Notes under the pieces: generated by a model | Told to the model about the DNA's origin: nothing | Database searches by the model: none | What the model saw: the letters and a program-made list of their open reading frames with translations, nothing else | NCBI GenBank assembly: GCA_000091165.1 | Contig: FP565575.1 | Coordinates: 2,430,001 to 2,462,000 of the forward strand | DNA length: 32,000 bases | Source of the DNA: Candidatus Methylomirabilis oxygeniifera | GTDB lineage: Bacteria; Methylomirabilota; Methylomirabilia; Methylomirabilales; Methylomirabilaceae | Direction: 5' to 3' | Translations under genes and position numbers: made by a program | Shown: in pieces, positions 907 to 20,522 of the stretch | Layout: every line of letters begins with the position of its first letter | How positions within the stretch are numbered: the stretch's first letter is position 1

Positions 907-911
907 ATAAG

Positions 912-1060
912 TATTAACAATCTCATTATTGAATCGACTTCCATTGAGAAAATCTCCCCTCGCCCCTCTTTTTCAAAGAGGGGTTAACCCTCCCTTTGGC
1001 AAAGGGAGGTGAGGAGGGTTTGTTTGATAATGTAAAACTATTATGGCGAGACTGTTAATA
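912..1060. repeat. MITE/REP-like insertion in the gap between the small-subunit gene and the hyfB-like gene
   Basis: Imperfect terminal inverted repeats: TATTAACAATCTC (912-924) versus the reverse complement of GAGACTGTTAATA (1048-1060), 12/13 identical. They enclose two G/C-rich hairpins (CCCCTCTTT-ttc-AAAGAGGGG and CCCTCCCTTT-ggc-AAAGGGAGG). The outer flanks are AT-rich. Confidence 0.5.
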
Positions 1061-1082
1061 TGTTCAGCACAAGGATGGCTCG

Positions 1083-3122: not shown

Positions 3123-3128
3123 GGGCGG

Positions 3129-4073: not shown

Positions 4074-4082
4074 GTTGGGTGA

Positions 4083-7775: not shown

Positions 7776-7822
7776 GCTCGTGTGTCCCGAACCTTTCACT
7801 CCTTTCAAGTTCTGTTCTGACC

Positions 7823-8215
7823 CGTCATTCCGCCTGCCTGTGCGTCTCTGCACGCAGACAGGTGCTTGACACGCCTGCCCCGTACTGGATACGGGGGAAT
7901 CCAGTCGAGCCCTCTGCATACCGGCGCCTGCCCCGGACTCCGATCCGGGGTCCGCCGGGTATGACGCACTCGCGGCAAGCCGCGGGGAATGAACCCTCTG
8001 AGGATTTAAGCCTGCTGGAGGAAGTACCATCGGCTAACAACCCTTTTTCACACATCATTGCAAGCCGAAGGCGAAGCAATCTCACCGTTCTTCATGACCC
8101 GCAGAGCAAAACGGGTGGATTGCCACGCTCCCGTTGGTCGCTCGCAATGACGACGCTACCGGGCCGATCTCTCGGCGAGGACTGCAAGTACATGGGGACA
8201 CTCCCCCGGAGCCCC
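7823..8215. repeat. Array of REP-like palindromic units in the intergenic tract
   Basis: Several independent stem-loops. CCCCGTA-ctgga-TACGGGG. CCCCGGA-ctccga-TCCGGGG, nested inside CATACCGGCG...CGCCGGGTATG. The ATTGCAAGC..GCAATCTC / GGATTGC..CTCGCAATGACG unit (8057-8152). GGACACT..AGTGTCC (8196-8225). ORFs across this tract translate to typical REP junk such as ...SQ*/AMT-like endings. Confidence 0.6.
8057..8152 (+). repeat. ATTGCRAGC...GCAATCTC / GGATTGC...CTCGCAATGACG element, copy 1
   Basis: Same bipartite box arrangement and orientation as 17381-17454. Four ATTGC/GCAAT boxes form two small hairpins. Confidence 0.6.
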
Positions 8216-8236
8216 GGTAGTGTCCTAATTTGAAAG
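8216..8236 (+). repeat. Left 21-bp direct repeat flanking the low-GC island
   Basis: GGTAGTGTCCTAATTTGAAAG versus GGTAGTATCCTGATTTGGAAG at 17172-17192. 18/21 are identical and all three differences are G/A transitions. Confidence 0.6.
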
Positions 8237-8304
8237 GGCCTCCCCTGCGGGCGGCATAGGAATTGCTTGACAAGTCATGAGTTCTCGTCATGTCATGATT
8301 TTGC

Positions 8305-8334
8305 TTGACAGGGTAGCAAGAACATATATATAAA
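8305..8334 (+). promoter_or_regulatory. sigma70-like promoter candidate upstream of pyrF
   Basis: TTGACA (8305-8310), then a 17-18 nt spacer, then ATATAA/TATAAA (8328-8334). It lies about 65 nt upstream of the first ATG. TTGCTTGACA occurs twice (8263-8272 and 8301-8310). Confidence 0.45.
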
Positions 8335-8397
8335 TATCCCCAACGTGTGTGACTATATTGATTCAATATACGTGATGCCTAATTTGGAAAGGGGTGA

Positions 8398-9222
8398 ATG
8401 ATGAGTGTCAAATTAGCGTCTCCCCCATTATCCACCGAATCCGATACGGCACACAAAGAGGTCTACCGTTCCAACAAGGTCAACATGCATATCAAAGCCA
8501 ACGAGCGTTTGATCCTCGCCCTCGATGTTCCACTAGGAAGGCCGCATGGGTTAATTGAACTGTCCGATGCTCGTGCGCTCGTGGAGCAATTAGACGGTGT
8601 CGTGTCATTCTTCAAGATCGGCTGGCCGCTCTATATGGCTGGAGGGCAGGCGCTTATTCCAGAGCTCGTTAATAAAGGCAAACGGGTCTTCTTGGATCTG
8701 AAGTTCGGTGACATTCCTGAAACGATCAAGAGACTCGTGCTTGTAGCTAGAGATCATGGCGTCAGTTTTATTACAGTGAACACCAGCTTTGATGCCGTGC
8801 GGGCTGCCGTGGCAGTGCGAGGCGAATCCGATCTGAAGATTCTGACGGTAACTGTTCTCACAAGCCTAGCAGATGCGGACTTGCGGGAAATGGGCGTTGA
8901 TACCGATGTTGAGACGTTGGCTCTATACAAAGCCAAGAAGGCGAGTGAATTTTGTGATGGCGTCATTGCTTCTGGAAAGGAAGCTGCGCTCATTCGTCAG
9001 AACGTACGCAAGGATTTCTTAATTGTGACGCCCGGCATTCGGCCTGTTGGGCGTGCACACGACGATCACAAAAGGGCGACAACGCCAACTGAAGCAATCA
9101 GTGCAGGGGCCGACTACTTGGTCGTTGGACGACCCATTACGCAAGCTGAGAATCCCCGGAATGCCGCCGCTAAGATCATCACAGAGATGCAAGACGCCTT
9201 CGATGCTCTCGCCAAGCCGTGA
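8398..9222 (+). CDS. pyrF: Orotidine 5'-phosphate decarboxylase
   Basis: LILALDV, FFKIGWPLY, FLDLKFGDIPETI, TVTVLTS, FLIVTPGIRP and GADYLVVGRPI are the catalytic and phosphate-binding motifs of the PyrF family. The N-terminal 29 aa look non-homologous, so ATG 8485 (MHIKANERLILALDV) is a plausible true start. Confidence 0.9.
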   Translation: MMSVKLASPPLSTESDTAHKEVYRSNKVNMHIKANERLILALDVPLGRPHGLIELSDARALVEQLDGVVSFFKIGWPLYMAGGQALIPELVNKGKRVFLDLKFGDIPETIKRLVLVARDHGVSFITVNTSFDAVRAAVAVRGESDLKILTVTVLTSLADADLREMGVDTDVETLALYKAKKASEFCDGVIASGKEAALIRQNVRKDFLIVTPGIRPVGRAHDDHKRATTPTEAISAGADYLVVGRPITQAENPRNAAAKIITEMQDAFDALAKP

Positions 9223-9313
9223 TAAGTTGTAGCTTTATCGTCGCATTGGTTGCGGTCTAGCGAGATAAGGTTGCCACAACATCTCCTGGTTCTCTACCTC
9301 TGTAGTGGAATCC

Positions 9314-9553
9314 TTACAGCAACTCCTCCAAAGCCCATATTCTACTAGCCACCCCTGCCGCCATCGCTGGCGTCACCCGCAGGCTCCCATGAATCCGCAC
9401 AAAATTGTAGTGGGCAAAATGCAAGGCTAACGCATCCTTGAGATTTCGCAGGGACTTTGAAAACGCATTCGTCAGTCTTGTGAACCGCCGCATCTGCATC
9501 CGCATGGTCAAGTTCTGCCGCTCGATATACGACGTTGACACATAGCGAGGATC
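9314..9553 (-). pseudogene. IS1-family transposase, C-terminal fragment only
   Basis: DPRYVSTSYIERQNLTMRMQMRRFTRLTNAFSKSLRNLKDALALHFAHYNFVRIHGSLRVTPAMAAG matches the conserved C-terminus of IS1-type (InsB-like) transposases (ERxNLxxRxxxxRxxRxxxxFSKS). No N-terminal or catalytic part is found upstream in any frame. Confidence 0.65.
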
Positions 9554-9730
9554 GCGGGGGTCCCGTTGATTGGCGTGGATACCACCTCCGCGACTCGTTG
9601 GGGAGAGTAACGGCCCGGACCTGGATTCTCGGCCTGGCAATGCTGGTCGATACGCGGGGCGCCATGAGGGCGGCTGCTAGCGTTTGATGTTTCCATTCGT
9701 CAAGGCTCTGCATAGTGACCTCACGCGAGT

Positions 9731-12271
9731 CTATTCCAGCAATACCTCGTTCAGCTTGGCTTCCCATTCGTCCTCGTCCAGAACCTCGAAGCGGAGCACC
9801 TTGTCTTTCATCTCAAGCCCGAGTTCGTTCCAGTTCCGGGACTTCGCCTGCCGGGTGCAAATGTCGAACACCTTGCGGATGTAATTGGTCTTGGCGTTGT
9901 CCTTCAGGTGCAGACCCTTGGTTTCAACCACGTAAACGCGCTCGTAATCCGTGTGAGTGGTCCTGTCGGTTGCCGTGAAAATAAAGTCTGGATAAATCCG
10001 GTGCTCCCGCCATCCCTGGATCGAGTAGTCATGCCTTGCGCGATTTCGGAACCAGAAGAAAAGCCGATGCTGGTTCTCTAGATACCAGGCAACCGCTTTC
10101 TCGGTCTCGTTGAAGTCATCCTCCGGTACCGCCTCGTAAAGACTGAACTCAAGCTGCCCACCCTTCTCCCTTGTCAGACGCTTTGAAGTTGGCTTGATAG
10201 CAATAGATTTCGGGAAAGACCAATCGAGGTTGTTGCCGATGATCAGGAAACGAAGCTCGTCCTTTTCCAGCATCGAACAGAAAACCCGCTCGGCCAGTCG
10301 GTCTTTCTCGGCTTCAAGTTGCTTCCGCAGTTCTTCGATCAGGAAAACAAAGTTATTGGCAATAAGCCGCTCAGTATCCAGCTTGCCGCCTATCTTACGG
10401 AAATGGTTCAAGACCTGCTGGGCGAATTCGTGTGCTTGCCAGGGGTTCGGCACGACGTCACCGATCTGTCGCGTCATAAAGACCGGATCAACGCGGATAC
10501 CGCCTTCCCTCAAATCGTGAATGCCTCTGGCTTCAATCACTCGATGCCTGTCATCGGTCAGCGTGACGCCGATTTCAACGTCTTTCTCCTCGTACTCGGA
10601 AAGCGTCAATTGCAAGACCGGCGTCAACGTCACTTCATCCCACGGAATCCGAGCCGCAATATCCATGTCGTAGTTGACGGGCCTCCAGCCGTGGCTGTTC
10701 CTGACCATGAAAACTGGGAGAATCGCTCGACCGGCAGCCATCTTGAAGCGTTCGCGCATGTCGAAAAGCTGGTCCATGCCGTCGCCGGGCATACCGCCGT
10801 ATTCGTCTTCTGTGGCGATATGTCCGCGCAAATCGCCCAAACCTTCCTGGGCAAAGCCGTCACGAATGCTTTCCAACAATGCATTGGCGCGTTGCTGAAA
10901 GCAAAACACATAGCTTTCGTCGAGATCCCGGACTTGGGTCTTTCGCGCGTAGGGTTGTCTCAGAATACGACCGACAAGCTGGGTCAAGGCGTTCTGTGAG
11001 GATGGATTCGTCAGAATCGCGAGCACGTAAGCGAACGAGCAGTCCCAACCCTCTTGAAGGGCCTGCTTGGTGATGATGTAGCGGATTTTGCAGTCCCGAC
11101 CGAGCAGCCCGCCTATATCGTCAACTTCCTTGAGTTCATCCTTTTCGCTCGTTTTGACCGCGATCTGTTCCGCCGGGACGCCCATAACCTTCGTCAAATG
11201 TTCCCGGACTTGCTCCGAATGAATGTACCGTCCGCCCTCTTGATTCTTCCCTGTGCGCTCCACTTGAATCAGGCAGATCGGGCGGATGTATATGCCCGTG
11301 TTCGCCTCGTATTCCTTGGCCTTTTCCTCCAGCACGTTCCGCTTGTTCACTCCGGCAAGCAGGGTGTCTTTCCAGTCCGGGCTTGCCTTGTTTACGACGT
11401 GGAGATCCAACTTGATCATTTCCTCATGGTGCAATTCTCGGCCTGCGATGTCCACGAGGATATTGCTTTGAACCGGCGTCGCCGAAAGTTCGGCAACTAG
11501 GCAAGGATTAAACCCGCGCAAGGTCTCCTGTGCCCCATCACTGTAAGCCTTGTGCCCTTCGTCGAGTATAATAACCGGCGAAAGTGTTCTGAGAGTGTTC
11601 CCCAATGACGTTTTGATTTGCCGACCCCAAAAGCCGCTTTGCTTCTCGTAGGTGTCCAGATTTGGGAAGCGTGTGAGCGTGGCCTCTTGCGCGATGATGT
11701 CATCCTCTGGCGGAAAAAAGTCCTGAAAACCGCCGCTGTCCTTGAAGACCTTCAAGGTCTCTTTCGTCTTCCGGTTGGCCGATGGAAGCATGAGCATCAG
11801 TACGATAAGATTTTCCTGCACATCCAGCGGGGCAAAGTGGTCCGTCTTTTCGAGAATCAGCGTGTGCCCACCGCTTGCCAGGTCCAGATGTTGGCGGTAC
11901 GGGTGATCCCGGTCTTTCAGGCACTGAATCGTCTGGCGGTAAATCTGTGTTGTCGGGACAATCCAGAGCACAAGCCCCGTCTGGCGTTTCCGGTAGATCG
12001 TATTCACGAGGTCAATCGTCTTGACCGCCAGCAGCGTTTTGCCACCCCCGGTCGGAAGTTTAAGACAGAATGTCGGTAATGCCTGGCCTAGTCCATTTTT
12101 GTGCGGCAGATACCGGCGCGGAAGTTTAGCCTTCTCCCATGCCTTCGCCGCAAAGTCAAAGGCCATGTCGGGATCAGTTATGCCTTCGGCCTTCTTCTTC
12201 AGATCGGCCAGAAGTTCAAGGTAACTCCTAATCCCGGCTAACGCTCTTTGCTGGTATTCCTTCAGTCGCAT
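9731..12271 (-). CDS. Type III restriction enzyme Res-like subunit (SF2 helicase plus C-terminal PD-(D/E)xK-like nuclease)
   Basis: Helicase motif I LPTGGGKT (aa 72-79), motif II ILDEGH (aa 235-240), motif III LSATP, motif V-like QEGWDC, and motif VI QLVGRILRQ. The C-terminal YPDFIF...VVETKG is a PD...ExK nuclease-like motif. The start lies 3 nt downstream of the mod stop. Confidence 0.8.
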   Translation of the reverse strand: MRLKEYQQRALAGIRSYLELLADLKKKAEGITDPDMAFDFAAKAWEKAKLPRRYLPHKNGLGQALPTFCLKLPTGGGKTLLAVKTIDLVNTIYRKRQTGLVLWIVPTTQIYRQTIQCLKDRDHPYRQHLDLASGGHTLILEKTDHFAPLDVQENLIVLMLMLPSANRKTKETLKVFKDSGGFQDFFPPEDDIIAQEATLTRFPNLDTYEKQSGFWGRQIKTSLGNTLRTLSPVIILDEGHKAYSDGAQETLRGFNPCLVAELSATPVQSNILVDIAGRELHHEEMIKLDLHVVNKASPDWKDTLLAGVNKRNVLEEKAKEYEANTGIYIRPICLIQVERTGKNQEGGRYIHSEQVREHLTKVMGVPAEQIAVKTSEKDELKEVDDIGGLLGRDCKIRYIITKQALQEGWDCSFAYVLAILTNPSSQNALTQLVGRILRQPYARKTQVRDLDESYVFCFQQRANALLESIRDGFAQEGLGDLRGHIATEDEYGGMPGDGMDQLFDMRERFKMAAGRAILPVFMVRNSHGWRPVNYDMDIAARIPWDEVTLTPVLQLTLSEYEEKDVEIGVTLTDDRHRVIEARGIHDLREGGIRVDPVFMTRQIGDVVPNPWQAHEFAQQVLNHFRKIGGKLDTERLIANNFVFLIEELRKQLEAEKDRLAERVFCSMLEKDELRFLIIGNNLDWSFPKSIAIKPTSKRLTREKGGQLEFSLYEAVPEDDFNETEKAVAWYLENQHRLFFWFRNRARHDYSIQGWREHRIYPDFIFTATDRTTHTDYERVYVVETKGLHLKDNAKTNYIRKVFDICTRQAKSRNWNELGLEMKDKVLRFEVLDEDEWEAKLNEVLLE

Positions 12272-12274
12272 CCG

Positions 12275-14041
12275 TCACCGCGTGAGTTCGTAAATCTCAT
12301 AGGGCAACTGCGCAAAATCAATCCGAAACTGGTCAAGGTGTTCTTGGTCCAGATACTTGGTCGGTGCGAAGACCAGCCGACGTTTGTCCTTCTTTAGGGG
12401 CGGCAGACTCTTCGCCATGTCCAGCGTCAATGCCAAATTTTTCAACTTCGCAACGTCGGGCTCATAGAAAAGGAAAACCTGGTAATTCCGACTCTCGCCG
12501 ATGAAGCGCCTCTTTTCGTTAATTGCCCTCTCGTCGAATTCCTCGCCGGTCGCCGTGTAGAAAACGTAACGGGCAAGTTCTTCGTAGGTCGGCAAGCCGT
12601 TGCCATCGAGGATGCTTTCAAGTTCGATGGCCTTGCCGAGCTTGAAGAAGCTGAACGAACCGCCGAGGCCCTTTCTCAGAGCCTCGTCCTTCGATATCGG
12701 CACACCCTTGATTACGCGCCGAACACGCTCCGCTGTAATGGAATCCGCATAGTCTTCGCACTCAACCAGAATGAAGCGGCGAGAGCCCTTGTCGGACTCA
12801 TTCAAAGCAAGGACGGCGTGGCCGGTAGTGCCAGTGCCAGCGAAGGAGTCAAGAACAAGGGCGCGTTGGTTTCCTTGAGTGACATATCGAATCAGACGAG
12901 CAAGAACCTCATGGTCTTTGGGATTCTCGAACACTTTCTTGCCGAAAATGCTGACAAGCACGTTTGTTGCCTGCAAAGCGCTCCTGTAAAAGTAACTCCC
13001 CGCAACCTGGATGCCGATATCCGATGCGTCCTCTTCTTCGCCATTTCCGTTACTCTCAGGAGACAAAGAGCGCACGAGATACGTTTTCCGAATGGGTGGT
13101 TCTGTGTGATCCTCGCGGAAGACGACAACGCCAGCGGCAATCATCTCATTCATCTTCTCAATCGTGGCATATCGCCAGCCACCTTCCGGCACCACACAAG
13201 GTTTGCGTGTCTTGGGATGGATTACATCGTAAGAAGGACCGCCGCCGCCCGGCCATGACATATTGTCATCACGCCACACGCCATTATCATCGACATTTCC
13301 GTACCGCGAATGCTTCTTCGATGGGTGGTTCTTGGGGAGTTGTTTGTAGAAGTCACGTAATCCTTCCTGAATAGCATTGCTGTCGCTGCCATGTAGCGCA
13401 CGAAGGCGAAGGTATTCGTCCTGAATCTCTTTCGCGCCCGGCTTGTCTTCGCGCCAAATGGTTTTGCGCTGTTTAAGCGTGTCCATCGACCGGGCATAAA
13501 TCAGGATGTACTCATGGCCCACGGAAAACAGTTTGGCATCGTTTTTTCGGCCCTTCTCGCAGACCAATTGGGCAATGAAATTCTCCTCGCCGAAAACCTC
13601 GTCCATGAGACAACGAAAATGGTGCGCCTCGTTGTCGTCAATCGAAACCATAATGACACCTTCGCTCTTCAGTAGGTCTTTAAGAATCTTCAGCCGGGGC
13701 ATCATCATGCAGAGCCACTTGTCATGTCGGGTCAGGTCCTCTCGGTCAACGACCTTGCCCAGCCAGTCCTGCATCATGGGCGAATTAACGCTGTCATTAT
13801 AGGCCCACTTTTCATTGCCCGTGTTGTACGGGGGATCAATGTAGATACAGTCGATCTTCCCGGCGTAAAGCGGAAGGAGCGCCTTCAGTGCCTTAAGGTT
13901 ATCGCCGTAGATAATCAGGTTGTCATGCAGAGTCACCTTGTCCGTCAGGCTCTTGGCCTTGACCGGGACAAGTTCGTGATACTTCACTAGCAAATGATGA
14001 TTCTGCACGAACGTTTTGCCCTTAAACTGTAGTTGCGCCAT
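12275..14041 (-). CDS. Type III-like Mod DNA methyltransferase (beta-class N6A/N4C)
   Basis: Motif IV DPPY (aa 69-72, IYIDPPYNTG) precedes motif I FAGTGTT (aa 400-406), which is the beta permutation. A long variable region between them is consistent with a target-recognition domain. The mod-then-res gene order is typical of type III systems. Confidence 0.8.
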   Translation of the reverse strand: MAQLQFKGKTFVQNHHLLVKYHELVPVKAKSLTDKVTLHDNLIIYGDNLKALKALLPLYAGKIDCIYIDPPYNTGNEKWAYNDSVNSPMMQDWLGKVVDREDLTRHDKWLCMMMPRLKILKDLLKSEGVIMVSIDDNEAHHFRCLMDEVFGEENFIAQLVCEKGRKNDAKLFSVGHEYILIYARSMDTLKQRKTIWREDKPGAKEIQDEYLRLRALHGSDSNAIQEGLRDFYKQLPKNHPSKKHSRYGNVDDNGVWRDDNMSWPGGGGPSYDVIHPKTRKPCVVPEGGWRYATIEKMNEMIAAGVVVFREDHTEPPIRKTYLVRSLSPESNGNGEEEDASDIGIQVAGSYFYRSALQATNVLVSIFGKKVFENPKDHEVLARLIRYVTQGNQRALVLDSFAGTGTTGHAVLALNESDKGSRRFILVECEDYADSITAERVRRVIKGVPISKDEALRKGLGGSFSFFKLGKAIELESILDGNGLPTYEELARYVFYTATGEEFDERAINEKRRFIGESRNYQVFLFYEPDVAKLKNLALTLDMAKSLPPLKKDKRRLVFAPTKYLDQEHLDQFRIDFAQLPYEIYELTR

Positions 14042-14052
14042 GAAGACCTCGC

Positions 14053-17000
14053 TTAATCATTGTGGGCAAACCGGTATTTGCGCTCCCGCGCAAGAAATGC
14101 ATCCTTCCCGCCTTCAAGAATCTTGGTTACCCGTTCGCGCACGCTCTCATTATCGATGCCACCTTCCCCGGCAATGTGTCCCCTGATTTGAGGAAGCCCA
14201 TCTTCGGGGCTTTCTCTGGGTTCAGTGTCCAGAACGACGATTTTTTCACTTTCGGCGTTGACCAGCATATTGGCGTTATGGGTTGCAAAAATGATCTGTT
14301 GCTGGTGCTTCAGCTCTTGAATGGCCGGCAGAATGTCATTTGTGATGAATGCGTTGTCGAGGTCGTCTTCAGGTTGGTCAATCACCAGCAACCCATCGGT
14401 CTGCGCGAGCAAAATCAGGAAAAGTGCCGTTGCCTTTTGCCCAACGGATGCTTGCTGAATCGAGATGTAGTCTTCGGTATCAACTTTACGCCGCAATTCC
14501 ATGTTCACCGAGTCCGGGACGTACTGACATAGCAGCCGGCCGATTTGTTTGTCATCAAAGCTCGTCATCAAGTCCACCACTTTGGCAAGGATCGGCCCGG
14601 CCCACGAGCATGCCGTCGGTCCCTTGTCGGGGACGGTTCGTCCCAGGGTCTTGTCTTGGCCGTGCTCAAAAACAGCAAGCATGTAGTCCGCAAGTTCGGT
14701 CCACAATTCCGCGGGATGCGAGGACAAGGAACGAGCGGGCACTTCCTTTCGGATAGCTATCTCAAGCTGCTCTGCGTCTCGGCTGTTGAACTTGCGGCCA
14801 TCCTTGACGTACCCCTGAAAGTCCGAAATTGCCCGCCGGATGTCACCGGCATGGACAACCCTCATTCGCACGCGCTGCTTTGTGCTCGTTGTCAGGGCAT
14901 CGGCTAAGTTCACGTAGATCTCGCCCTCCTCGGATCGGCATTGCCGCAAACGGGAGACCAATTCGCGTCGCTGTGTACGTGCTTGGTTCAGCCGGGTATC
15001 CAGTTCGTCAAAGTGCGAGATGCGCGAGTCAATTTCCTGCAGCCGGGCCTGAAGAGGCTCAAGAAGAGTGAGGTTGATCTTATTGGCCTCCATCTCTTTC
15101 TTGGCTTCGCCGTATGCCACGGAATGCTCGGCGATTCGTTCGGTTATCAGCGCGTTCTCTGTGCTCTGCGCCAGAGCATCGGTATTTTTCAGCCAGGAAG
15201 TTGCCACGCCTCTGAGGGCAGCAATTAGGTCATCCACCTGCTTGAGAGCGGCGGTGCGCACGGTCAAAAGAGAGGATTCCGCGCCCGTTTGAGTATCAGG
15301 CAACGTCTTTGATGCGCGCCTCTTCTTATCCTCTATCGCTTTGACGGCCTTAGTCTGTTCGGCGTGGATGTCGCTCAGGGCAGCAAACAGATCGTTTCGT
15401 GCCGTTTCAAGAAGCGTGAACTGCTGATGTGACTGAAATGCCGGATGTGCAGCGCGACTCTTAATCTTAAGAAGTTCCTCGTTGAGGCGTGCGCGCTCCG
15501 CTACCAAACGCGGCTTCTGGATGAGTTCCAGTGCCCATGATGCCATATCCACAGAGAGTTTTTCGATTTCGTCCGCGAGTTGACGCGCTTGGCGCTCCTT
15601 CGCGTCCACCTGTGAGAGCTGGTCGGACTTCAGAAAGGAAAAGAGGTTGACTCCGCCCCGCCGTTCCGGGTCGAGCGAGAAAAATGACTCGTCACGGACT
15701 ATGTTGGCAAGTTCGCGTTGACCGAAAAATCTGAGATTCAACAGAGCCGACGGAGATCGCGTCGAGACCGGAACCCCGCCTTCGCAGCGTTCGTCCGCGC
15801 ATTCGAGGATTTCTGGTGGACCTTCTCCTTTTCGCCGGATGCGGTAGAACTTCTGACCGCCTTTAACGGAAAGGTCGATTTCTGTTTCGGGCAAGAGTGT
15901 GCCATCGGTCTTGTCCTCTTTCCGAAGCCATAAAATACCTTTATTTGGGCGGTCATACGTTTCACCGGCGCGCTGGTATTGGCAAGCGTGGGAAACGTAT
16001 TCGAGGAGGCAGGATTTGCCAGTGCCTCGTCCCCCTATGAGGCATGTCATGTGTGGGTTGAAGTCCAGTTGAAGATCGTCAAAGAAAACGGTTTTTCGGA
16101 CCCGCATACGGAGAATGGTCCAGTCTGGATCATGAAATATTGCTGGGGAAAGGAATGTCTTGTTGTTGAGGAGTGCCTGCCGAACTCCTTCAATCGTGAA
16201 ACTACCGAGTTTCACATAAGAAAGCATCGCAGGCTGGAGAGCGTCAAAGGTGCGCGCGTCTGAGGTCTGCAACCATGCAACGGGTGCGTCGGTGTAGTCT
16301 TCGAGCTCACCGTTGAGAACACGCTTAGTAAAATCATCCAGCTCAGTGTATGGCTTGCTTATTATGAAGCCATCGGCTAGTCCGACAACTTGACGGAAAA
16401 TGTTGCGGAGTCGGGTTGCCGTGTCTCGGTCTTCAAGGATGCCTTTGTGGCCAGTAGCAACAACAAGGGCAATGAGTCGAGAGCGGAAGCGGTCATGCGC
16501 TCGGTCCAACAGGCTACAGAGGTTCAATCTGCTTTCATGCCATCGCCCCTGTTGAAGTTCCAGACTCTCGTGGACACGGGTGTCCAGGTCATTGACCTCG
16601 TTGTCGTCCGGGTTTGCCAAAAGGATGACTTGGATTTGGTCGGATGAGGTTAGCTCATAACCGGGGAATACAACCGGGACATCTTGTCGTCCTGCTGCCA
16701 ACATGCGGCGCGCAACATCCCGTACGGTCTTTGCGCCACCGTGAAAGATGCTGTTGTGCTGTGGTATGCCAATAACCTGTCGACCCGACTGGAAAACTCG
16801 GGGCAAGTAATCCTCTTCAATGAACTGATCCAATGGCTTGTTGCCGGTCGGGTCTTGCCAGTCTGGGTGAGCGTGCAGGTGAAAATCACAGGCATAAGGG
16901 CGAGCGCCCAGCTTTTCCCGGTCACTGTCCCGAAATGAAACTCTCGAGTTATTCCTTGTCACTGCAAGACTCCTCATGGTCAAAATGTTAAGTCCACAGT

Positions 17001-17064
17001 GTAACCGGTCTTTCGCACAAGTGAAAAACCAGAGAGCCGAATGAAGCAAAACCCTGTGGGCCAC
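14053..17064 (-). CDS. PHP-domain phosphoesterase fused to an ABC/SMC-like ATPase with a long coiled-coil insertion
   Basis: N-terminal DFHLHAHPDW (HxH at aa 62-64), IPQHNS, FPGYELTS and ATGHKG resemble the PHP metal-ligand pattern. Walker A is GGRGTGKS (aa 344-351, nt 16012-16035). A heptad-rich, charged region spans roughly aa 480-720. A signature-like SVGQKATALFLILLA is followed by Walker B LLVIDQPEDDLDN (aa 892-903) and IIFATHNANMLV. The GTG at 17064 opens the ORF; ATG 16977 (MRSLAVT...) is an equally plausible start. Confidence 0.75.
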   Translation of the reverse strand: MAHRVLLHSALWFFTCAKDRLHCGLNILTMRSLAVTRNNSRVSFRDSDREKLGARPYACDFHLHAHPDWQDPTGNKPLDQFIEEDYLPRVFQSGRQVIGIPQHNSIFHGGAKTVRDVARRMLAAGRQDVPVVFPGYELTSSDQIQVILLANPDDNEVNDLDTRVHESLELQQGRWHESRLNLCSLLDRAHDRFRSRLIALVVATGHKGILEDRDTATRLRNIFRQVVGLADGFIISKPYTELDDFTKRVLNGELEDYTDAPVAWLQTSDARTFDALQPAMLSYVKLGSFTIEGVRQALLNNKTFLSPAIFHDPDWTILRMRVRKTVFFDDLQLDFNPHMTCLIGGRGTGKSCLLEYVSHACQYQRAGETYDRPNKGILWLRKEDKTDGTLLPETEIDLSVKGGQKFYRIRRKGEGPPEILECADERCEGGVPVSTRSPSALLNLRFFGQRELANIVRDESFFSLDPERRGGVNLFSFLKSDQLSQVDAKERQARQLADEIEKLSVDMASWALELIQKPRLVAERARLNEELLKIKSRAAHPAFQSHQQFTLLETARNDLFAALSDIHAEQTKAVKAIEDKKRRASKTLPDTQTGAESSLLTVRTAALKQVDDLIAALRGVATSWLKNTDALAQSTENALITERIAEHSVAYGEAKKEMEANKINLTLLEPLQARLQEIDSRISHFDELDTRLNQARTQRRELVSRLRQCRSEEGEIYVNLADALTTSTKQRVRMRVVHAGDIRRAISDFQGYVKDGRKFNSRDAEQLEIAIRKEVPARSLSSHPAELWTELADYMLAVFEHGQDKTLGRTVPDKGPTACSWAGPILAKVVDLMTSFDDKQIGRLLCQYVPDSVNMELRRKVDTEDYISIQQASVGQKATALFLILLAQTDGLLVIDQPEDDLDNAFITNDILPAIQELKHQQQIIFATHNANMLVNAESEKIVVLDTEPRESPEDGLPQIRGHIAGEGGIDNESVRERVTKILEGGKDAFLARERKYRFAHND

Positions 17065-17171
17065 CTGAGAAGCGTATATAAAAGGAGTGGACGGCGGGAG
17101 ACCCTTTCGCCCACAAGATGAGGATAATGATACGTCAAACGATACTCCCCTTCAAGCTGGAACAGGCGGAT

Positions 17172-17192
17172 GGTAGTATCCTGATTTGGAAG
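17172..17192 (+). repeat. Right 21-bp direct repeat flanking the low-GC island
   Basis: GGTAGTATCCTGATTTGGAAG, 18/21 identical to 8216-8236. Confidence 0.6.
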
Positions 17193-17230
17193 TAGGTGCA
17201 CTCACGAGATCTTCAAGTTAGGATACTACC
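17172..17230. repeat. Perfect 11-bp inverted repeat / long hairpin at the island's right edge
   Basis: GGTAGTATCCT (17172-17182) and AGGATACTACC (17220-17230) are exact reverse complements separated by 37 nt. The stem can extend imperfectly (TTGGAAG / CTTCAAG). Confidence 0.7.
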
Positions 17231-17285
17231 CTGAACCCCGAGCATAGTGATTGATCGCGCAACTCATTTATCTGTCTGCCGTTGG

Positions 17286-17345
17286 TTAGAACACCCCCTC
17301 ACCCACACCCTCTCCCCGAAATGGGGGCGAGGGGAAGGGAGGGAT
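17286..17345. repeat. G/C-rich REP-like unit
   Basis: CCCTCACCCACACCCTCTCCCCGAAATGGGGGCGAGGGGAAGGGAGGG. It contains GGGGCGAGGGG, the reverse complement of CCCCTCGCCCC in the 912-1060 element. Confidence 0.5.
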
Positions 17346-17380
17346 TTCATGCTCATGGGTGTGCCGCAGGCGCATAGGAT

Positions 17381-17454
17381 ATTGCGAGCACCCAAGGGTT
17401 CGCGGCAATCTCGGTGCAGAACGGCGGGATTGCTTCGCTACACTCGCAATGACG
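17381..17454 (+). repeat. ATTGCRAGC...GCAATCTC / GGATTGC...CTCGCAATGACG element, copy 2
   Basis: ATTGCGAGC (17381-17389), GCAATCTC (17405-17412), GGATTGC (17427-17433) and CTCGCAATGACG (17443-17454). Box order and orientation are the same as in 8057-8152. Confidence 0.6.
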
Positions 17455-17577
17455 CATCCCAATGTCCATTCCCCGGTGAGCCCCTATCAGCTTTACAAGA
17501 TTCAGCGTTTCCGATAAGATGAATATTTTCGTTGCAGCGGTCGGCTGCGCTGTCTGGAGTCCGGGGAGAGTTCGAGT

Positions 17578-19059
17578 GTGAAAGGGTTGTTCGATAATCT
17601 TGGGCTGAGGGCGAAACTGCTCCTGATGATGTTCTCCCTCCTGCTGCTGACGTTCGCCTCGCTGTTCGCGTTGTATTGGCACGCAGAGCTGGCGCTGATC
17701 GAGCAGGTGGAGAAACACACGATGGATCTGTCCACCGCGATTCAGATCAGCGTCGAGCGCCTCACCTCCCAGGAGCGGACCGATGAGGCGCGTCTCCAGG
17801 ACTATGTCAACCGCCTGCAACGAAAAGGCGTGAATGAGATCTCTATCGTCAGCAATGAGGAGGAGGTCATCGCCAGCAGCAACCCGAAGAGAGTGGGCGC
17901 GATGATTGACCCAAGCCACCGGGATCTGTTCATTACGGCCAGGCTGGGAGACACCCTGAAAACCGAGCACGGGCAAAAGAACTATAATCTGATTGTACCG
18001 ATCGTAGTCGGGAATCAGCGGATGGGTTACGCCCTGATCAGCATGGTGTTGGACGATTTCGCCCAGATCTCGCAACTGAACTTCATCAAGCGTCTGATTG
18101 CCACCGTACTGGTCTTTGGCCTTGGGATGGCCGCCTCCCTCGTTCTGTCATGGAAATACACTAGACCGATCGATCAGGTGGTCCAGGCGGCGCGTCGAGT
18201 GGCCCAGGGTGATCTCCGGGATACCTTACCGGTCGAGGGGCACGATGAGATCGGTGAGCTGACCGCGAGTTTCAACGATATGGTGCAAAAGCTGCGGGCA
18301 AACAAGGAGTTGGAGCAACGCCTACACCAGGCTGAGCGCCTCTCCAGCATCGGCCAGTTGGCCTCGGGCATTGCGCACGAAATCCGCAATCCGTTGAACT
18401 TCATCAACCTGAGCATCGATCATCTGCAAAGCCGGTTTTCACCCGCCGATCCCGGCTCGCGCGAGGAGTTCACCTATCTGGTCTCGTGGGTGAAAAGCGA
18501 GATCCACCGCCTGAATACGATGATTACCAATTTCCTGACCTACGGGAAGCCGCTCAAGCTTCAGCCGCGCCCATCCGATCTGACCTCGCTGCTCCATGAT
18601 GTGGTGAAGATGGTCAGCGGTAAGGCCGAAGAACAGGGGATCGAAATCGATTGCGGCTCCCTGGAAGCATTGCCGATACTGTCGGTAGATGGGGAGCAGA
18701 TCAGGACCTGTTTCGTCAACGTCCTGGTGAATGCTCTCCAGGCTATGCCTCAGGGGGGGAAGCTGGCGATCGCAACCAGGCTGGTGAACGAGACCGATTC
18801 GTCCGGGGGTCCATCGCCACTCGCCGCGAGCAGGCGCTGGATCGAGGTCAGTTTTCAGGATACCGGGCATGGGATCGCCACGGCAGACCTGCCGAGGGTG
18901 TTCGAGCCGTACTTTACGACCAAGGAGGTCGGGATCGGATTGGGATTGGCCCTGACGAAGAAGATTGTGGAAGAGCATGGAGGGACGATTGCGTTGGAGA
19001 GTATTCCAAACCGGGGCACTACGGTGAGCATCCGGCTACCGGTGGAGGAGCAGGTCTGA
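17578..19059 (+). CDS. Sensor histidine kinase (two TM segments, HAMP, HisKA, HATPase_c)
   Basis: N-terminal hydrophobic segment, then a periplasmic-like region of about 150 aa, then a second TM. HAMP region PIDQVVQAARRVAQGDL..EIGELTASFNDMV. H-box SGIAHEIRNPLN. N/G boxes NVLVNALQAM, DTGHGI and GIGLGLALTKKIVEEHGG. GTG start. Confidence 0.85.
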   Translation: MKGLFDNLGLRAKLLLMMFSLLLLTFASLFALYWHAELALIEQVEKHTMDLSTAIQISVERLTSQERTDEARLQDYVNRLQRKGVNEISIVSNEEEVIASSNPKRVGAMIDPSHRDLFITARLGDTLKTEHGQKNYNLIVPIVVGNQRMGYALISMVLDDFAQISQLNFIKRLIATVLVFGLGMAASLVLSWKYTRPIDQVVQAARRVAQGDLRDTLPVEGHDEIGELTASFNDMVQKLRANKELEQRLHQAERLSSIGQLASGIAHEIRNPLNFINLSIDHLQSRFSPADPGSREEFTYLVSWVKSEIHRLNTMITNFLTYGKPLKLQPRPSDLTSLLHDVVKMVSGKAEEQGIEIDCGSLEALPILSVDGEQIRTCFVNVLVNALQAMPQGGKLAIATRLVNETDSSGGPSPLAASRRWIEVSFQDTGHGIATADLPRVFEPYFTTKEVGIGLGLALTKKIVEEHGGTIALESIPNRGTTVSIRLPVEEQV

Positions 19060-20522
19060 TGCGTGAGGGACGGATCCTGGTAGTCGACGACGAGGGTCCC
19101 CAGCGAGAGATCCTTCGGACCATCCTATCGGCTGAAGGCTATTCGGTTGAAACGGCACCGGGAGGGACGGAGGCCTTACGGCGCTGCCAGGAGAAATCGT
19201 ATGACCTGGTGCTGACCGATCTTCGAATGCCGGGAACCGACGGCCTCTCCCTTGTGGAGCGGCTGATCCGAGACGACCCCCCCACCCTAGTCGTTCTGAT
19301 GACCGCCTACGGCTCGCTGGATTCGGCCGAGCAGGCGTTGAAAAAGGGGGCCTTCGATTATCTGACCAAACCGCTGGAGCGGGAGGAGCTGCTCCTGACG
19401 GTAAAAAGGGCCTTCGAGCGCATCCAGTTGAGCCGGGAGAATCGGTTGTTGCGACAGCAGGCAGAGGAGCGTTTTCGCATCGAAGGGATCGTGGGCAGCC
19501 ATTTCCGGATGCAGGAGGTCTTTGAGAAGATCCAAAAGGTCTCAAACAGCAACACGACCGTGCTCCTCATAGGAGAGAGCGGGACCGGGAAAGAACTGAT
19601 CGCCAGAACCATCCATCGACAGAGTCCACGCAAAGATCGCCCGTTTATTGCCGTCAACTGCGCGGCCATCCCTGAGAGTCTGCTGGAAAGTGAGATCTTC
19701 GGCCATGAACGGGGCGCGTTTACGGGGGCCGTAGACCGACGGGCCGGCTGCTTTGAGCTGGCGAACGGCGGGACGATTTTCCTGGATGAGGTCGTCGAGA
19801 TGCAACTGCCGACCCAGCCGAAATTCCTACGTGTCCTGCAGGGAGAGACGTTCAGAAGGCTGGGAGGAAAAAGTGAGATCGACGTTGACGTTCGCGTCAT
19901 CGCCGCAACCAATCGGGATCCTGTCGAAGCGGTCAAAGACGGGCTTCTCCGGGAGGACCTGTTCTATCGACTGAACGTGGTCTCCATTGGAATCCCACCT
20001 CTCCGCGAGCGAAGCACCGACATCCCTCAACTCGTCGACTATTTCATCATAAAGCACGGTGGGAGCGCGGGAAAGCCGATCCGGGGGATCAGCAACGGAG
20101 CCATGCGGCTCCTGATGAACTATCACTGGCCCGGTAATGTCCGACAACTGGAGGCGGTGATCGAGCGGGCAAGCCTGCTCTCTGAAGGGCCTGAGATTCA
20201 GCATTATGATCTGCCTATCGAGGTTCGGTTCTTTGACCTTCCGGTCCTGTCTGCCTCATCGAGTATACCCGGCAGTAAGTTCGCCATCGAGATTCCCGAG
20301 CAGGGGATTCACTTTGAGGCGCTGGAGCGCGACTTGATCCTGCAGGCTATGGAGAAGTCCGACTGGGTGATCACGAAGGCGGCGCGCCTCCTGGGGTTGA
20401 GTTACCGGACCCTGCAGTATCGTCTGGAGAAATTTCAGATCAAACGGGACACAAAGGCCGCCTCCATAACTTCGGAGAGCGGATTCACTGAGCAAGGAGA
20501 ACAACGGAAAGGGGGGATGTGA
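19059..20522 (+). CDS. sigma54-dependent response regulator (NtrC family)
   Basis: Receiver domain ILVVDDE...LVLTDLRMPG. AAA+ domain GESGTGKELIAR, ERGAFTGA (GAFTGA motif) and GGTIFLDEV. C-terminal Fis-type HTH ITKAARLLGLSYRTLQYRLEKF. ATG 19059 overlaps the kinase stop (TGATG). The part of ORF 18651 upstream of this is a read-through artefact. Confidence 0.9.
   Translation: MREGRILVVDDEGPQREILRTILSAEGYSVETAPGGTEALRRCQEKSYDLVLTDLRMPGTDGLSLVERLIRDDPPTLVVLMTAYGSLDSAEQALKKGAFDYLTKPLEREELLLTVKRAFERIQLSRENRLLRQQAEERFRIEGIVGSHFRMQEVFEKIQKVSNSNTTVLLIGESGTGKELIARTIHRQSPRKDRPFIAVNCAAIPESLLESEIFGHERGAFTGAVDRRAGCFELANGGTIFLDEVVEMQLPTQPKFLRVLQGETFRRLGGKSEIDVDVRVIAATNRDPVEAVKDGLLREDLFYRLNVVSIGIPPLRERSTDIPQLVDYFIIKHGGSAGKPIRGISNGAMRLLMNYHWPGNVRQLEAVIERASLLSEGPEIQHYDLPIEVRFFDLPVLSASSSIPGSKFAIEIPEQGIHFEALERDLILQAMEKSDWVITKAARLLGLSYRTLQYRLEKFQIKRDTKAASITSESGFTEQGEQRKGGM

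What the first reader, a model, noticed from the sequence alone, without database searches (positions are those of the whole stretch)
14053..17064. 1003-aa PHP-domain / coiled-coil ABC ATPase of unclear function
A predicted metal-dependent phosphoesterase head (DFHLHAHPDW, QHNS, GYELTS, ATGHKG) is fused to an ATPase. The Walker A motif (GGRGTGKS, aa 344-351) is separated by more than 500 residues from the signature-like motif, Walker B and the H-loop (SVGQK, IDQPEDDLD, FATHN, aa 873-930). The spacer is rich in heptad-like charged helices, which is the SMC/Rad50/RecN topology. A nuclease or phosphatase attached to a DNA-clamping ATPase suggests a DNA-end or foreign-DNA sensor-effector. The start codon is ambiguous (GTG 17064 or ATG 16977), and neither has a clear Shine-Dalgarno sequence.
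Basis: partly seen in the sequence, partly recalled or inferred. Interest (0 to 1): 0.65.

Follow-up and report, generated by a model that had tools for sequence, protein, structure and literature searches.

The report
TrlF/Ppl-type PHP–SMC-like defence ATPase
The gene encodes a divergent member of the already named TrlF/Ppl family, in which a nuclease-like PHP domain is fused to a Rad50/SMC-like ATPase; here it heads a small operon with an intact type III restriction-modification system, so it is an ordinary though unusual-looking anti-phage island gene.

Summary
A long minus-strand ORF encodes an N-terminal PHP-fold domain fused to an ABC ATPase. The Walker A motif and the signature, Walker B and H-loop motifs are separated by an antiparallel coiled coil of about 250 residues.

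It is most likely GTG 16962, which gives a 969-aa protein, has an AGGAG Shine-Dalgarno 7 nt upstream, and matches the N-termini of the orthologues.

The architecture is already named. NCBIfam TrlF family scores 345.7 bits against a cut-off of 350. The experimentally characterised single-gene defence protein Ppl is a weaker match.

The window protein belongs to a rare outlying clade nearest the TrlF "type C" lineage. This lineage lacks the TrlG partner gene and has a remodelled PHP site: Q111, V168 and R237 replace three canonical His ligands, while H28, H30, H69, E103 and D235 are kept.

Orthologues at 54-81% identity sit beside type III R-M, type IIG R-M or Zorya systems, or stand alone. The protein is therefore a self-contained defence module rather than a type III subunit.

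The most likely mechanism is an NTP-gated, DNA-end-directed nuclease. Catalysis by the altered PHP site is unproven.

Verdict: a new member of a known kind, of moderate to low interest.

The parts
14053..16962 (-). TrlF-like PHP-ABC/coiled-coil ATPase gene (969 aa plus stop), with the start revised to GTG 16962
   Evidence: ORF. The database gene call P0001 is 969 aa and begins MTRNNSRV. NCBIfam TrlF scores 345.7 bits over the full length.
16970..16974 (-). Shine-Dalgarno AGGAG, 7 nt upstream of GTG 16962
   Evidence: Read directly from the sequence ...ATGAGGAGTCTTGCAGTG....
17127..17155 (-). Sigma-70-like promoter candidate (TTGAAG-17-TATCAT) upstream of the operon
   Evidence: Consensus scan only. 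The number of hits in the region does not exceed shuffles. This is weak evidence.
16108..16905 (-). PHP-fold domain (aa 20-285). Kept ligand positions are H28, H30, D34, H69, E103 and D235. Replaced positions are Q68, Q111, V168 (with H172 nearby) and R237.
   Evidence: Alignment with homologues, 18 of 41 of which hit Pfam PHP. Profile against PDB sequences. AF2 model and Foldseek.
15628..16107 (-). ABC ATPase N-lobe (aa 286-445), with Walker A GGRGTGKS at aa 310-317 (nt 16012-16035) and Q-loop Q415
   Evidence: Invariant columns G310, R312, G315 and K316; Q415 is conserved in at least 90%. Pfam AAA_23.
14878..15627 (-). Antiparallel coiled coil (aa 446-695). The apex loop at about aa 551-561 carries a clade-conserved TxTGxExS motif and no CxxC zinc hook.
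   Evidence: AF2 secondary structure. Apex alignment. Heptad check. SMC/Rad50/RecN fold hits.
14518..14877 (-). Helical insert between the returning coiled coil and the C-lobe (aa 696-815)
   Evidence: AF2 model. This is the least conserved region, with 52% identity within the clade.
14056..14517 (-). ABC ATPase C-lobe (aa 816-969), with signature SVGQK (839-843), Walker B LLVIDQPEDDLD (Q863 follows the Walker B Asp) and H-loop H895
   Evidence: Pfam AAA_21 and SMC_N. Gln at Walker B+1 in 130 of 131 representatives.
12275..14041 (-). Type III R-M Mod methyltransferase (588 aa; DPPY and FAGTG motifs). It starts 11 nt after the TrlF-like stop and has its own GAGG.
   Evidence: PADLOC MTase_III 1.9e-151. 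Pfam N6_N4_Mtase. Sequence.
9731..12271 (-). Type III R-M Res helicase-nuclease (846 aa; GGGKT, DEGH and PD...ETK motifs), starting 3 nt after the mod stop
   Evidence: PADLOC REase_III 5.4e-174. Pfam ResIII. Sequence.
9317..9640 (-). IS1-family transposase C-terminal remnant at the res-distal edge of the island
   Evidence: tblastn gives 65% identity to annotated IS1-family transposases.

Best explanation
The gene encodes a self-contained anti-phage or anti-plasmid effector of the TrlF/Ppl superfamily.

Shown here:
- Two halves of an ABC ATPase head are separated by an antiparallel coiled coil of about 15 nm, as in Rad50, RecN and SMC.
- A PHP-fold domain is fused to the N-terminus.
- The gene is the first of a tightly packed three-gene operon with an intact type III Mod/Res system. 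The operon lies in a small island between pyrF and a two-component system.

Inferred:
- The protein dimerises through nucleotide-sandwiching heads.
- It recognises DNA ends or other aberrant DNA with the head and coiled coil.
- It uses the PHP domain as a metal-dependent phosphodiesterase, most likely a 3'-5' exonuclease as reported for Ppl, to degrade invading DNA.
- NTP binding acts mainly as a switch or sensor rather than a motor. The residue after the Walker B Asp is a family-wide Gln (DQPE), which is the position of the catalytic Glu in canonical ABC ATPases.
- Its position next to a restriction enzyme may supply it with DNA ends, or let it act as a second line when restriction fails.

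The PHP site is remodelled. The first metal site (H28, H30, E103, D235) is intact. Q111 and V168 replace the two His of the second site, and R237 replaces a His of the third. Any catalysis would therefore use fewer metals, or different ones, than canonical trinuclear PHP enzymes.
For: Family assignment:
- NCBIfam TrlF gives a full-length match of 345.7 bits. Ppl and Spaf_1101 give partial matches. PADLOC Ppl scores 4.6e-34.

Fold:
- AF2 pLDDT is 86.6. Foldseek finds SMC, MukB, JetC, Rad50, RecN and LmuB heads.
- The PHP domain is supported by the profile search and by Foldseek hits to EndoQ, RNase AM and PsfC.
- All ATPase motifs are intact and clade-invariant.

Defence context:
- An intact type III Mod and Res lie 11 nt and 3 nt downstream. 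An IS1 remnant marks the island edge.
- Orthologues at 54-81% identity lie next to a type IIG R-M system within an integrase-bearing stretch, next to ZorA/ZorB, or alone.
- Wider relatives sit on 899 plasmid records. They are also nested inside type I, type III-like, BREX-1 and DUF1156/DUF499 operons.

Constraint on the PHP domain:
- Within the clade it is 62% identical, between the ATPase lobes (69-79%) and the coiled coil (52%).
- The substituted residues Q111 and R237 are conserved between the window clade and type C relatives that are only about 25% identical overall.

Mechanistic precedent:
- Ppl is described as an ssDNA 3'-5' exonuclease that requires 3'-OH ends and is inhibited by NTPs bound to its PHP and NTPase domains (PMC12904381).
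- Ppl protects against T7 and is countered by Bas63 gp130 (PMC11482910).
Against: - No experiment exists for this clade or for TrlF itself. In Photorhabdus the temperature-restriction phenotype mapped to TrlG, not TrlF (PMC7554251).
- Pfam PHP does not hit the window protein directly.
- Three of nine canonical metal-ligand positions are substituted. From my own knowledge, not tested here, loss of such ligands inactivates the PHP exonuclease in some DnaE polymerases.
- Similarity to Ppl is weak: 130 bits against a cut-off of 1000, mostly in the C-terminal part.
- Model coordinates could not be inspected, so the geometry of H172, Q111 and R237 is unknown.
- Co-transcription with mod and res is inferred only from the 11-nt and 3-nt gaps.
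Confidence: 0.6

Rival explanations
1. Restriction-linked guard or helper. The protein is functionally coupled to the adjacent type III enzyme. One possibility is that it processes the DNA ends that Res creates. The other is that it is held silent by the R-M complex and released when a phage anti-restriction factor disables it, which is the PrrC/EcoprrI logic and is also proposed for the Rad50-like RloC.
For: - The gene starts the same operon, with an 11-nt gap to mod and a 3-nt gap from mod to res.
- TrlF-family genes are repeatedly nested inside methylation-based defence operons. Examples are hsdM-hsdS-trlF-trlG-hsdR, pglX-trlF-trlG-pglZ, mod-trlF-trlG-res and SNF2-DUF1156-trlF-trlG-DUF499.
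- Type C relatives lie directly beside HsdR (L018) or a restriction endonuclease (L097).
- Precedents are PrrC and RloC, ABC or Rad50-like ATPase-nuclease fusions linked to R-M loci (PMC2610378 and PMC3458546).
Against: - Close orthologues at 54-81% identity occur without any R-M neighbour or beside unrelated systems such as Zorya. An obligate partnership with type III enzymes is therefore excluded.
- Clustering in defence islands alone produces many such adjacencies.
- Enrichment over a null model was not computed.
Confidence: 0.2
2. Pseudo-enzyme sensor. The remodelled PHP domain no longer hydrolyses phosphodiesters. It binds a ligand (nucleotide, DNA end or metal) and regulates the ATPase. 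The protein then acts by DNA clamping or sequestration, or by recruiting a host nuclease.
For: - Three canonical His ligands are replaced by Q111, V168 and R237, and motif II D is replaced by Q68.
- There is no direct Pfam PHP hit.
- Ppl's PHP domain is reported to bind inhibitory NTPs (PMC12904381).
Against: - The first metal site (H28, H30, E103, D235) is complete in the window protein. E103 and D235 are invariant in all 41 aligned homologues.
- The lineage has no conserved partner gene that could serve as effector.
- The best structural matches are active nucleic-acid phosphodiesterases, EndoQ and RNase AM.
Confidence: 0.15
3. Housekeeping DNA double-strand-break repair factor, of the RecN or SbcC/Rad50 type with a PolX-like PHP end-cleaning domain. 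The automatic GO term on relatives suggests this role.
For: - The fold resembles Rad50, RecN and SMC.
- RefSeq records tag TrlF proteins with 'double-strand break repair'.
Against: - The distribution is sporadic. The window clade forms only one full-length 50%-identity cluster among 1.84 billion representatives.
- Relatives sit on conjugative plasmids and beside integrases, transposases, toxin-antitoxin systems, R-M, BREX and Zorya.
- No conserved repair-gene neighbourhood was seen.
Confidence: 0.05

Closest known systems
TrlF family AAA-like ATPase (NCBIfam NF045780), named after trlF of the Photorhabdus temperature-restriction locus trlR-trlF-trlG
   Same: - The architecture matches over the full length: PHP domain, ABC N-lobe, coiled coil, ABC C-lobe.
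- It shares the DQPEDDLD Walker B, the SxGQK signature and the THNAN H-loop.
- The nearest relatives, type C at about 28% identity, share Q111, D34 and R237 and also lack TrlG.
   Different: - It scores just under the curated cut-off: 345.7 bits here and 309-346 across the clade, against 350. Other subgroups score 424-632.
- It has no TrlG (Schlafen AlbA_2 + HATPase_c_4) partner. TrlG follows 35 of 48 type A/B genes.
- It has its own changes: Q68, V168 and an invariant GHKG loop with H172.
- No TrlR-like regulator was detected upstream.
Ppl (polymerase/histidinol-phosphatase-like) single-gene anti-phage system (PADLOC PDLC02208, NCBIfam NF042955)
   Same: - It is a single polypeptide with a PHP domain plus an ATPase and no obligate partner.
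- There is a significant HMM match, PADLOC 4.6e-34.
- The reported mechanism, a DNA-end-dependent 3'-5' ssDNA exonuclease gated by NTPs (PMC12904381), fits this anatomy.
   Different: - It is far below the Ppl equivalog cut-off, 130 against 1000 bits, and the match is mostly C-terminal.
- The ligand set of Ppl's PHP domain was not compared here.
- No functional data exist for this clade.
RloC / PrrC anticodon nucleases
   Same: - Each is an ABC ATPase fused in one chain to a nuclease effector. RloC carries a Rad50-like coiled-coil insert.
- Both are genetically linked to R-M loci, always for PrrC and sometimes for RloC.
- For RloC a role as a DNA-damage or anti-restriction sensor has been proposed (PMC2610378, PMC3458546, PMC3874168).
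   Different: - Here the effector is an N-terminal PHP fold, not a C-terminal anticodon nuclease.
- There is no CxxC zinc hook at the coiled-coil apex.
- No sequence match to these families appeared in any scan.
- The resemblance is an analogy of logic, not family membership.
SMC-like defence ATPases: Lamassu LmuB, Wadjet JetC, and Rad50/RecN
   Same: The head and coiled-coil fold match (Foldseek E 1e-11 to 1e-6). DNA-end or DNA-shape sensing is the established role of these proteins (PMC12663957; PMC12904381).
   Different: - Those systems carry their nuclease and kleisin-like parts on separate subunits. Here the putative nuclease is fused and no partner genes are conserved.
- The coiled coil is short, about 100-130 residues per arm.
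- There is no hinge or zinc hook.
PHP-fold nucleic-acid phosphodiesterases: EndoQ, RNase AM (YciV/TrpH) and PolX/PolC PHP exonucleases
   Same: The fold matches. Motif I HxH, motif II H, motif III E and motif V D are present.
   Different: - TM-scores are only 0.4-0.5.
- Canonical His residues are replaced by Q111, V168 and R237.
- The Pfam PHP model does not reach significance on this sequence.

Membership tests
TrlF family (NCBIfam NF045780) | Full-length HMM score at or above the curated cut-off of 350 bits | tested here: not met
   The score is 345.7 bits over model positions 8-944 of 944. Clade members P0005 and P0009 score 344 and 309. This is a borderline miss and marks an outlying sister clade.
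TrlF family (NCBIfam NF045780) | Architecture of N-terminal PHP-like domain, split ABC ATPase and coiled-coil insert, with a DQPE Walker B | tested here: met
TrlF-TrlG two-gene cassette (Photorhabdus TRL type) | A TrlG gene (Schlafen AlbA_2 + HATPase_c_4, about 410 aa) immediately downstream | tested here: not met
   tblastn with two TrlG proteins finds nothing in the window. The downstream gene is Mod. For the Q111/R237 lineage, 0 of 17 loci have TrlG.
Ppl anti-phage protein (NF042955 / PADLOC Ppl) | Equivalog-level HMM score (cut-off 1000 bits) | tested here: not met
   The score is 130.4 bits and the best stretch is C-terminal. The PADLOC Ppl value of 4.6e-34 shows relatedness only.
Ppl anti-phage protein (NF042955 / PADLOC Ppl) | Single-gene system that confers phage resistance through 3'-5' exonuclease activity | not testable with these tools
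   Single-gene status is supported by the variable neighbourhoods. Activity requires experiments.
PHP superfamily (Pfam PF02811) | PHP fold (distorted alpha/beta barrel) recognisable by profile or structure | tested here: met
   There is no direct Pfam hit. However, 18 of 41 aligned homologues hit PF02811. The N-terminal profile finds PHP structures at E values down to 7e-8. The seven significant Foldseek hits are all PHP-fold proteins.
PHP superfamily (Pfam PF02811) | Complete set of nine metal-ligand residues for a trinuclear site | tested here: not met
   H28, H30, H69, E103 and D235 are kept, and D34 possibly. Q111, V168 and R237 replace canonical His. The assignment of positions to individual metal sites rests on my memory of YcdX and PolX structures.
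SMC/Rad50/RecN-type ABC ATPases | Walker A, Q-loop, signature, Walker B/D-loop and H-loop, with a coiled coil inserted between the N- and C-lobes | tested here: met
   One deviation is Gln instead of Glu directly after the Walker B Asp.
SMC/Rad50/RecN-type ABC ATPases | Apical dimerisation element (Rad50 CxxC zinc hook or SMC hinge) | tested here: not met
   The apex loop at aa 551-561 has no Cys. It carries a clade-conserved TxTGxExS motif instead.
Type III restriction-modification system (as an integral third subunit) | Obligate co-occurrence with Mod and Res | tested here: not met
   Orthologues at 54-81% identity lack type III neighbours. No Res homologue lies near any of the 80 wider relatives, and Mod-like genes lie near only 6.

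The most novel reading that the evidence does not exclude
The TrlG-less 'Q111/R237' lineage of TrlF proteins, including this clade, may use a PHP active site rebuilt around fewer metals. In this reading an arginine stands in for the third metal and Gln for a His ligand. The site is paired with an ATPase that is naturally 'EQ-like' (DQPE).

Together they would form a nucleotide-level sensor coupled to a DNA-end nuclease. TrlF modules are repeatedly planted inside or at the head of methylation-based defence operons: type I, type III, BREX and DUF1156/DUF499. This placement would suggest that they exploit the DNA ends those systems make, or fire when phages disable those systems.

If true, this would define a general 'restriction-backup' class with new PHP chemistry.
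Probability: 0.2. Interest if true: 0.6.

Novelty: new member of a known kind. Interest (0 to 1): 0.35.

Why it matters
The finding itself is a correct first-principles recognition of a protein family that annotation databases already name (TrlF) and that has one characterised relative (Ppl). It does not open a new category.

It still adds four things:
1. A corrected gene start.
2. A rare, deeply diverged clade that current NCBIfam thresholds just miss.
3. A typing of PHP active-site variants across the family that predicts whether the TrlG partner is present: 0 of 17 loci against 35 of 48.
4. Documentation that TrlF modules are nested within four kinds of methylation-based defence operons.

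TrlF proteins are common on conjugative enterobacterial plasmids, with 899 plasmid records. Knowing whether they are nucleases, how NTPs gate them and whether they cooperate with R-M or BREX would bear on plasmid and phage biology. This window offers a compact three-gene test case.

Tried and rejected
- **Direct Pfam scan for PHP:** no hit. The fold was established instead through homologues, a profile and structure prediction.
- **Single-sequence search of PDB sequences:** no hit.
- **Solved Ppl or TrlF structure:** none appeared among the top 50 full-length or N-terminal Foldseek hits.
- **Obligatory type III R-M accessory subunit:** rejected, because close orthologues sit in other contexts.
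- **TrlG or TrlR in the window:** no TrlG by tblastn. The small upstream ORFs 16980-17201(-) and 17247-17522(+) match no family.
- **Zinc hook or hinge at the coiled-coil apex:** absent.
- **H172 ('GHKG') as a general substitute for the motif IV His:** it is invariant only in the window clade and variable in type C, so this stays speculative.
- **Phage-encoded homologues:** only 7 partial hits.
- **Literature:** searches for a TrlF mechanism, for the primary Ppl mechanism paper, and for a named PHP+Schlafen system in R-M/BREX loci found only the Photorhabdus paper and secondary mentions. Two searches failed on the server.
- **Ppl-annotated sequence for comparing PHP ligands:** a plasmid tblastn returned only TrlF-labelled genes.
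- **GC content:** it does not clearly delimit the island.
- **Promoter and terminator scans:** uninformative, with hits no more frequent than in shuffles.
- **Infrastructure:** several sandbox and remote calls failed and were repeated.


Full report
**1. The observation**

The minus-strand ORF 14053..17064 is present.

The start needs correcting. The upstream sequence reads ...GACC ATG AGGAG TCTTGCA GTG ACA.... A third candidate, GTG 16962, therefore sits 7 nt downstream of a perfect AGGAG. This is the start of the 969-aa gene product held in the protein database (P0001, MTRNNSRVSF...). Eight orthologues of 943-971 aa begin 12-22 residues before the conserved LGARPY...DFHLH block, and none has a counterpart of the 34-codon extension to GTG 17064. 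All residue numbers below refer to the 969-aa protein.

**2. What the protein is**

*Family scans*
- Pfam finds only ABC/SMC-type ATPase pieces (AAA_21, SMC_N, AAA_23) and no PHP domain.
- NCBIfam gives a full-length match to 'TrlF family AAA-like ATPase': 345.7 bits against a cut-off of 350, over model positions 8-944 of 944. It gives weaker, mainly C-terminal matches to the Spaf_1101 family and to the anti-phage protein Ppl.
- PADLOC's best hit is Ppl at 4.6e-34.
- The name TrlF comes from the Photorhabdus temperature-restriction locus trlR-trlF-trlG. There, mutations in trlG, not trlF, relieved growth restriction at 36 °C, and TrlF was annotated as a histidinol phosphatase (PMC7554251).

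*Whole-protein structure*
- An AlphaFold2 model built on 41 homologues is confident (pLDDT 86.6, pTM 0.71).
- It shows an alpha/beta domain at 20-285, an ABC N-lobe at 286-445 and long antiparallel helices at 446-550 and 562-693.
- A helical insert follows at 708-812, then the ABC C-lobe at 816-964.
- Foldseek against the PDB returns MukB, JetC, SMC heads, Rad50, Lamassu LmuB and RecN at E values of 1e-11 to 1e-6.

*ATPase motifs*
- Walker A is at G310-S317, the Q-loop at Q415, the signature at S839-K843, Walker B at D862 and the H-loop at H895.
- All are invariant or nearly so.
- The apex of the coiled coil has no CxxC hook. It carries a clade-conserved TxTGxExS loop.
- One family-wide peculiarity is that the residue after the Walker B Asp is Gln (DQPE) in 130 of 131 representatives. 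In canonical ABC, SMC and Rad50 ATPases this position holds the catalytic Glu, and E-to-Q mutants bind ATP but hydrolyse it poorly (established knowledge). Whether E865 compensates is unknown.

*The N-terminal domain*
- 18 of the 41 aligned homologues hit Pfam PHP.
- A profile of the N-terminal 282 residues finds PHP-family structures: TM0559 at 7e-8, RNase AM, a 5'-3' exoribonuclease, the PolC PHP domain, YcdX and EndoQ.
- A separate model of the domain alone has pLDDT 90.9 and pTM 0.90.
- Its only significant Foldseek hits are PsfC, EndoQ and RNase AM, with probability 1.00 and TM-scores of 0.4-0.5.
- The PHP fold is therefore supported, although this is a divergent version.

**3. The PHP active site is remodelled, not simply conserved**

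The alignment gives the state of the canonical motifs in the window protein.

| Motif | Window residue(s) | Note |
|---|---|---|
| I (HxH) | H28, H30 | H28 is Q in part of the clade |
| after motif I | D34 | clade-invariant; a possible additional ligand position (mapping from memory) |
| II (DH) | Q68-H69 | D replaced by Q |
| III | E103 | invariant in 41 of 41 |
| next His | Q111 | canonical His replaced |
| IV His | V168 | an invariant GHKG loop places H172 four residues later |
| V (DxH) | D235-x-R237 | D235 invariant in 41 of 41; His replaced by Arg |

From my memory of YcdX and PolX structures, the first metal site (two motif I His, Glu, Asp) is intact. The second and third sites have each lost His ligands.

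This gave three recurrent signatures:
- **Type A** has the canonical ligand set.
- **Type B** has lost both motif I His and the motif V His. It includes Photorhabdus TrlF.
- **Type C** reads D-Q-H-D / DH / E / Q / (H or N) / D-R.

The window clade is an offshoot of type C. It shares D34, Q111 and R237, and 20 of its 25 nearest representatives are type C. Q111 and R237 are maintained between lineages that are only about 25-28% identical overall. Within the clade the PHP domain is 62% identical, between the ATPase lobes (69-79%) and the coiled coil (52%). The site therefore looks constrained rather than decaying. Whether it catalyses hydrolysis cannot be decided here.

**4. Genomic context**

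*In the window*
- The gene is followed after 11 nt, which include a GAGG, by a type III Mod methyltransferase with DPPY and FAGTG motifs.
- After 3 more nt comes a type III Res with GGGKT, DEGH and PD...ETK motifs.
- Both give very strong PADLOC matches, 1.9e-151 and 5.4e-174.
- Beyond res lies an IS1-family transposase remnant.
- The flanks are pyrF on one side and a histidine kinase with a sigma-54 response regulator on the other.

*Close orthologues (54-81% identity)*
- One lies beside a type IIG R-M enzyme, within a stretch that also carries an integrase gene.
- One lies beside ZorA/ZorB.
- The others are alone or next to unannotated genes.
- The protein is therefore a self-contained module, not a type III subunit.
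- The clade is rare. In a library of 1.84 billion representatives it forms one full-length 50% cluster. The score then drops from 1153 to about 180 bits.

*The wider family*
- The family is large, with 233 representatives at E<=1e-30 and 899 plasmid records.
- In 40 of 80 genomic loci a gene of about 410 aa lies next to the relative, in nearly all cases 5-25 nt downstream. It has Schlafen AlbA_2 and HATPase_c_4 domains and is TrlG.
- The PHP signature predicts this partner. None of 17 type C or window-clade loci with enough downstream sequence has TrlG, against 35 of 48 type A/B loci. Fisher's exact test gives p = 6e-8, without phylogenetic correction and with some redundancy among loci.
- TrlF or TrlF-TrlG is repeatedly nested inside methylation-based defence operons:
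  - hsdM-hsdS-trlF-trlG-hsdR on a Citrobacter IncC plasmid
  - pglX-trlF-trlG-pglZ-brxL on a Vibrio plasmid
  - mod-trlF-trlG-res
  - SNF2-DUF1156-trlF-trlG-DUF499
  - further type I and BREX cases
- Type C relatives have no conserved neighbour. They lie beside integrases, a transposase, a methylase, HsdR or a restriction endonuclease.

**5. Most likely mechanism**

*Shown here*
- The domain anatomy and the intact ATPase motifs.
- A partly canonical PHP site.
- An operon-like arrangement with an intact type III system.
- Mobile and defence contexts for orthologues.

*Taken from the literature*
- Ppl, the characterised single-gene relative, is summarised as an ssDNA 3'-5' exonuclease. It needs 3'-OH ends and is inhibited by NTPs bound to both its PHP and NTPase domains (PMC12904381).
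- Ppl restricts T7 and is countered by phage Bas63 gp130 (PMC11482910).
- SMC-like defence proteins such as Lamassu sense DNA ends (PMC12663957).

*Inferred*
- The window protein dimerises through its heads and recognises DNA ends or abnormal DNA.
- It degrades that DNA with the PHP domain.
- Nucleotide binding acts as a gate, which is consistent with the DQPE motif.
- Restriction cleavage by Res would be an obvious local source of ends. Alternatively the module may back up restriction when a phage blocks it, as PrrC does and as RloC may do (PMC2610378, PMC3458546).

I put about 0.85 on 'TrlF/Ppl-superfamily defence protein'. I put about 0.6 on the combined statement that includes nuclease action.

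The rivals, in order of confidence, are functional coupling to the R-M system (0.2), a non-catalytic sensor PHP domain (0.15) and housekeeping repair (0.05).

**6. Comparison with known families, and novelty**

- The protein works like Ppl/TrlF and shares their architecture.
- It narrowly fails the curated TrlF threshold and clearly fails the Ppl threshold.
- It lacks TrlG.
- It lacks three canonical PHP ligands.
- It resembles RloC and PrrC only in logic.
- It is best filed as a new, outlying member of a known kind.

**7. Limits**

- No coordinates of the models could be inspected.
- No experimental data exist for TrlF proteins.
- The genome-locus sample was retrieved with the patterns DQPE[DE][DNH]LD and [IV]GGRG[TS]GKS[TCS], so it is biased towards conserved motifs. 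The Gln count is therefore taken from the unbiased phmmer representatives.
- Adjacency statistics are descriptive.
- The primary Ppl mechanism paper was not found in the library, so that mechanism is cited from a review.

Noticed in passing
window 9317-9640 (-): A C-terminal remnant of an IS1-family transposase lies just beyond the res gene. It is 65% identical to annotated IS1 transposases. It probably marks the mobile origin of the three-gene island.
   Followed up: partly
window 17294-17333: A GC-rich palindromic element (CCCTCGCCCCCATTTCGGGGAGAGGGTGTGGGTGAGGGGG) lies in the intergenic region between the histidine-kinase gene and the island. It occurs once in the window. It resembles REP-type repeats.
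   Followed up: partly
window 9731-14041 (-): This is a complete type III restriction-modification system. Mod has DPPY and FAGTG motifs. Res has GGGKT, DEGH and a C-terminal PD...ETK nuclease motif. It is tightly packed behind the TrlF-like gene, with gaps of 11 nt and 3 nt.
   Followed up: yes
L098 (Citrobacter IncC plasmid) 2086-13053; L100 (Vibrio plasmid) 323-11620; L041, L037, L083, L023: TrlF-TrlG cassettes are inserted in the middle of type I (hsdM-hsdS-[trlF-trlG]-hsdR), BREX-1 (pglX-[trlF-trlG]-pglZ), type III-like and DUF1156/DUF499 operons. This recurrent nesting was not found described in the searched literature.
   Followed up: partly
loci L011-L102 and representatives P0052-P0193: The TrlF superfamily splits into three PHP active-site signatures. 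The Q111/R237 'type C' lineage never has TrlG downstream (0 of 17), against 35 of 48 for the other types. This suggests that type C proteins carry their own effector function.
   Followed up: partly
window protein aa 862-865 (nt about 14368-14379) and family-wide: Walker B is followed by Gln-Pro-Glu (DQPE) in 130 of 131 representatives. This is a natural 'E-to-Q-like' state at the usual catalytic-base position of ABC ATPases.
   Followed up: partly
window 17578-20522 (+): A histidine kinase (HAMP-HisKA-HATPase) and a sigma-54-dependent response regulator flank the island. The listed 623-aa TTG ORF for the regulator overlaps the kinase gene by about 400 nt, so its true start is probably near 19060. 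The same genomic stretch in related assemblies has a 487-aa call for this gene.
   Followed up: no
window 1083-7775 (+): This is a cluster of membrane-bound hydrogenase or complex-I-like subunits (Proton_antipo_M, Complex1_30kDa/49kDa fusion). It is unrelated housekeeping context, with a higher GC content (0.63) than the island (0.52-0.55).
   Followed up: no
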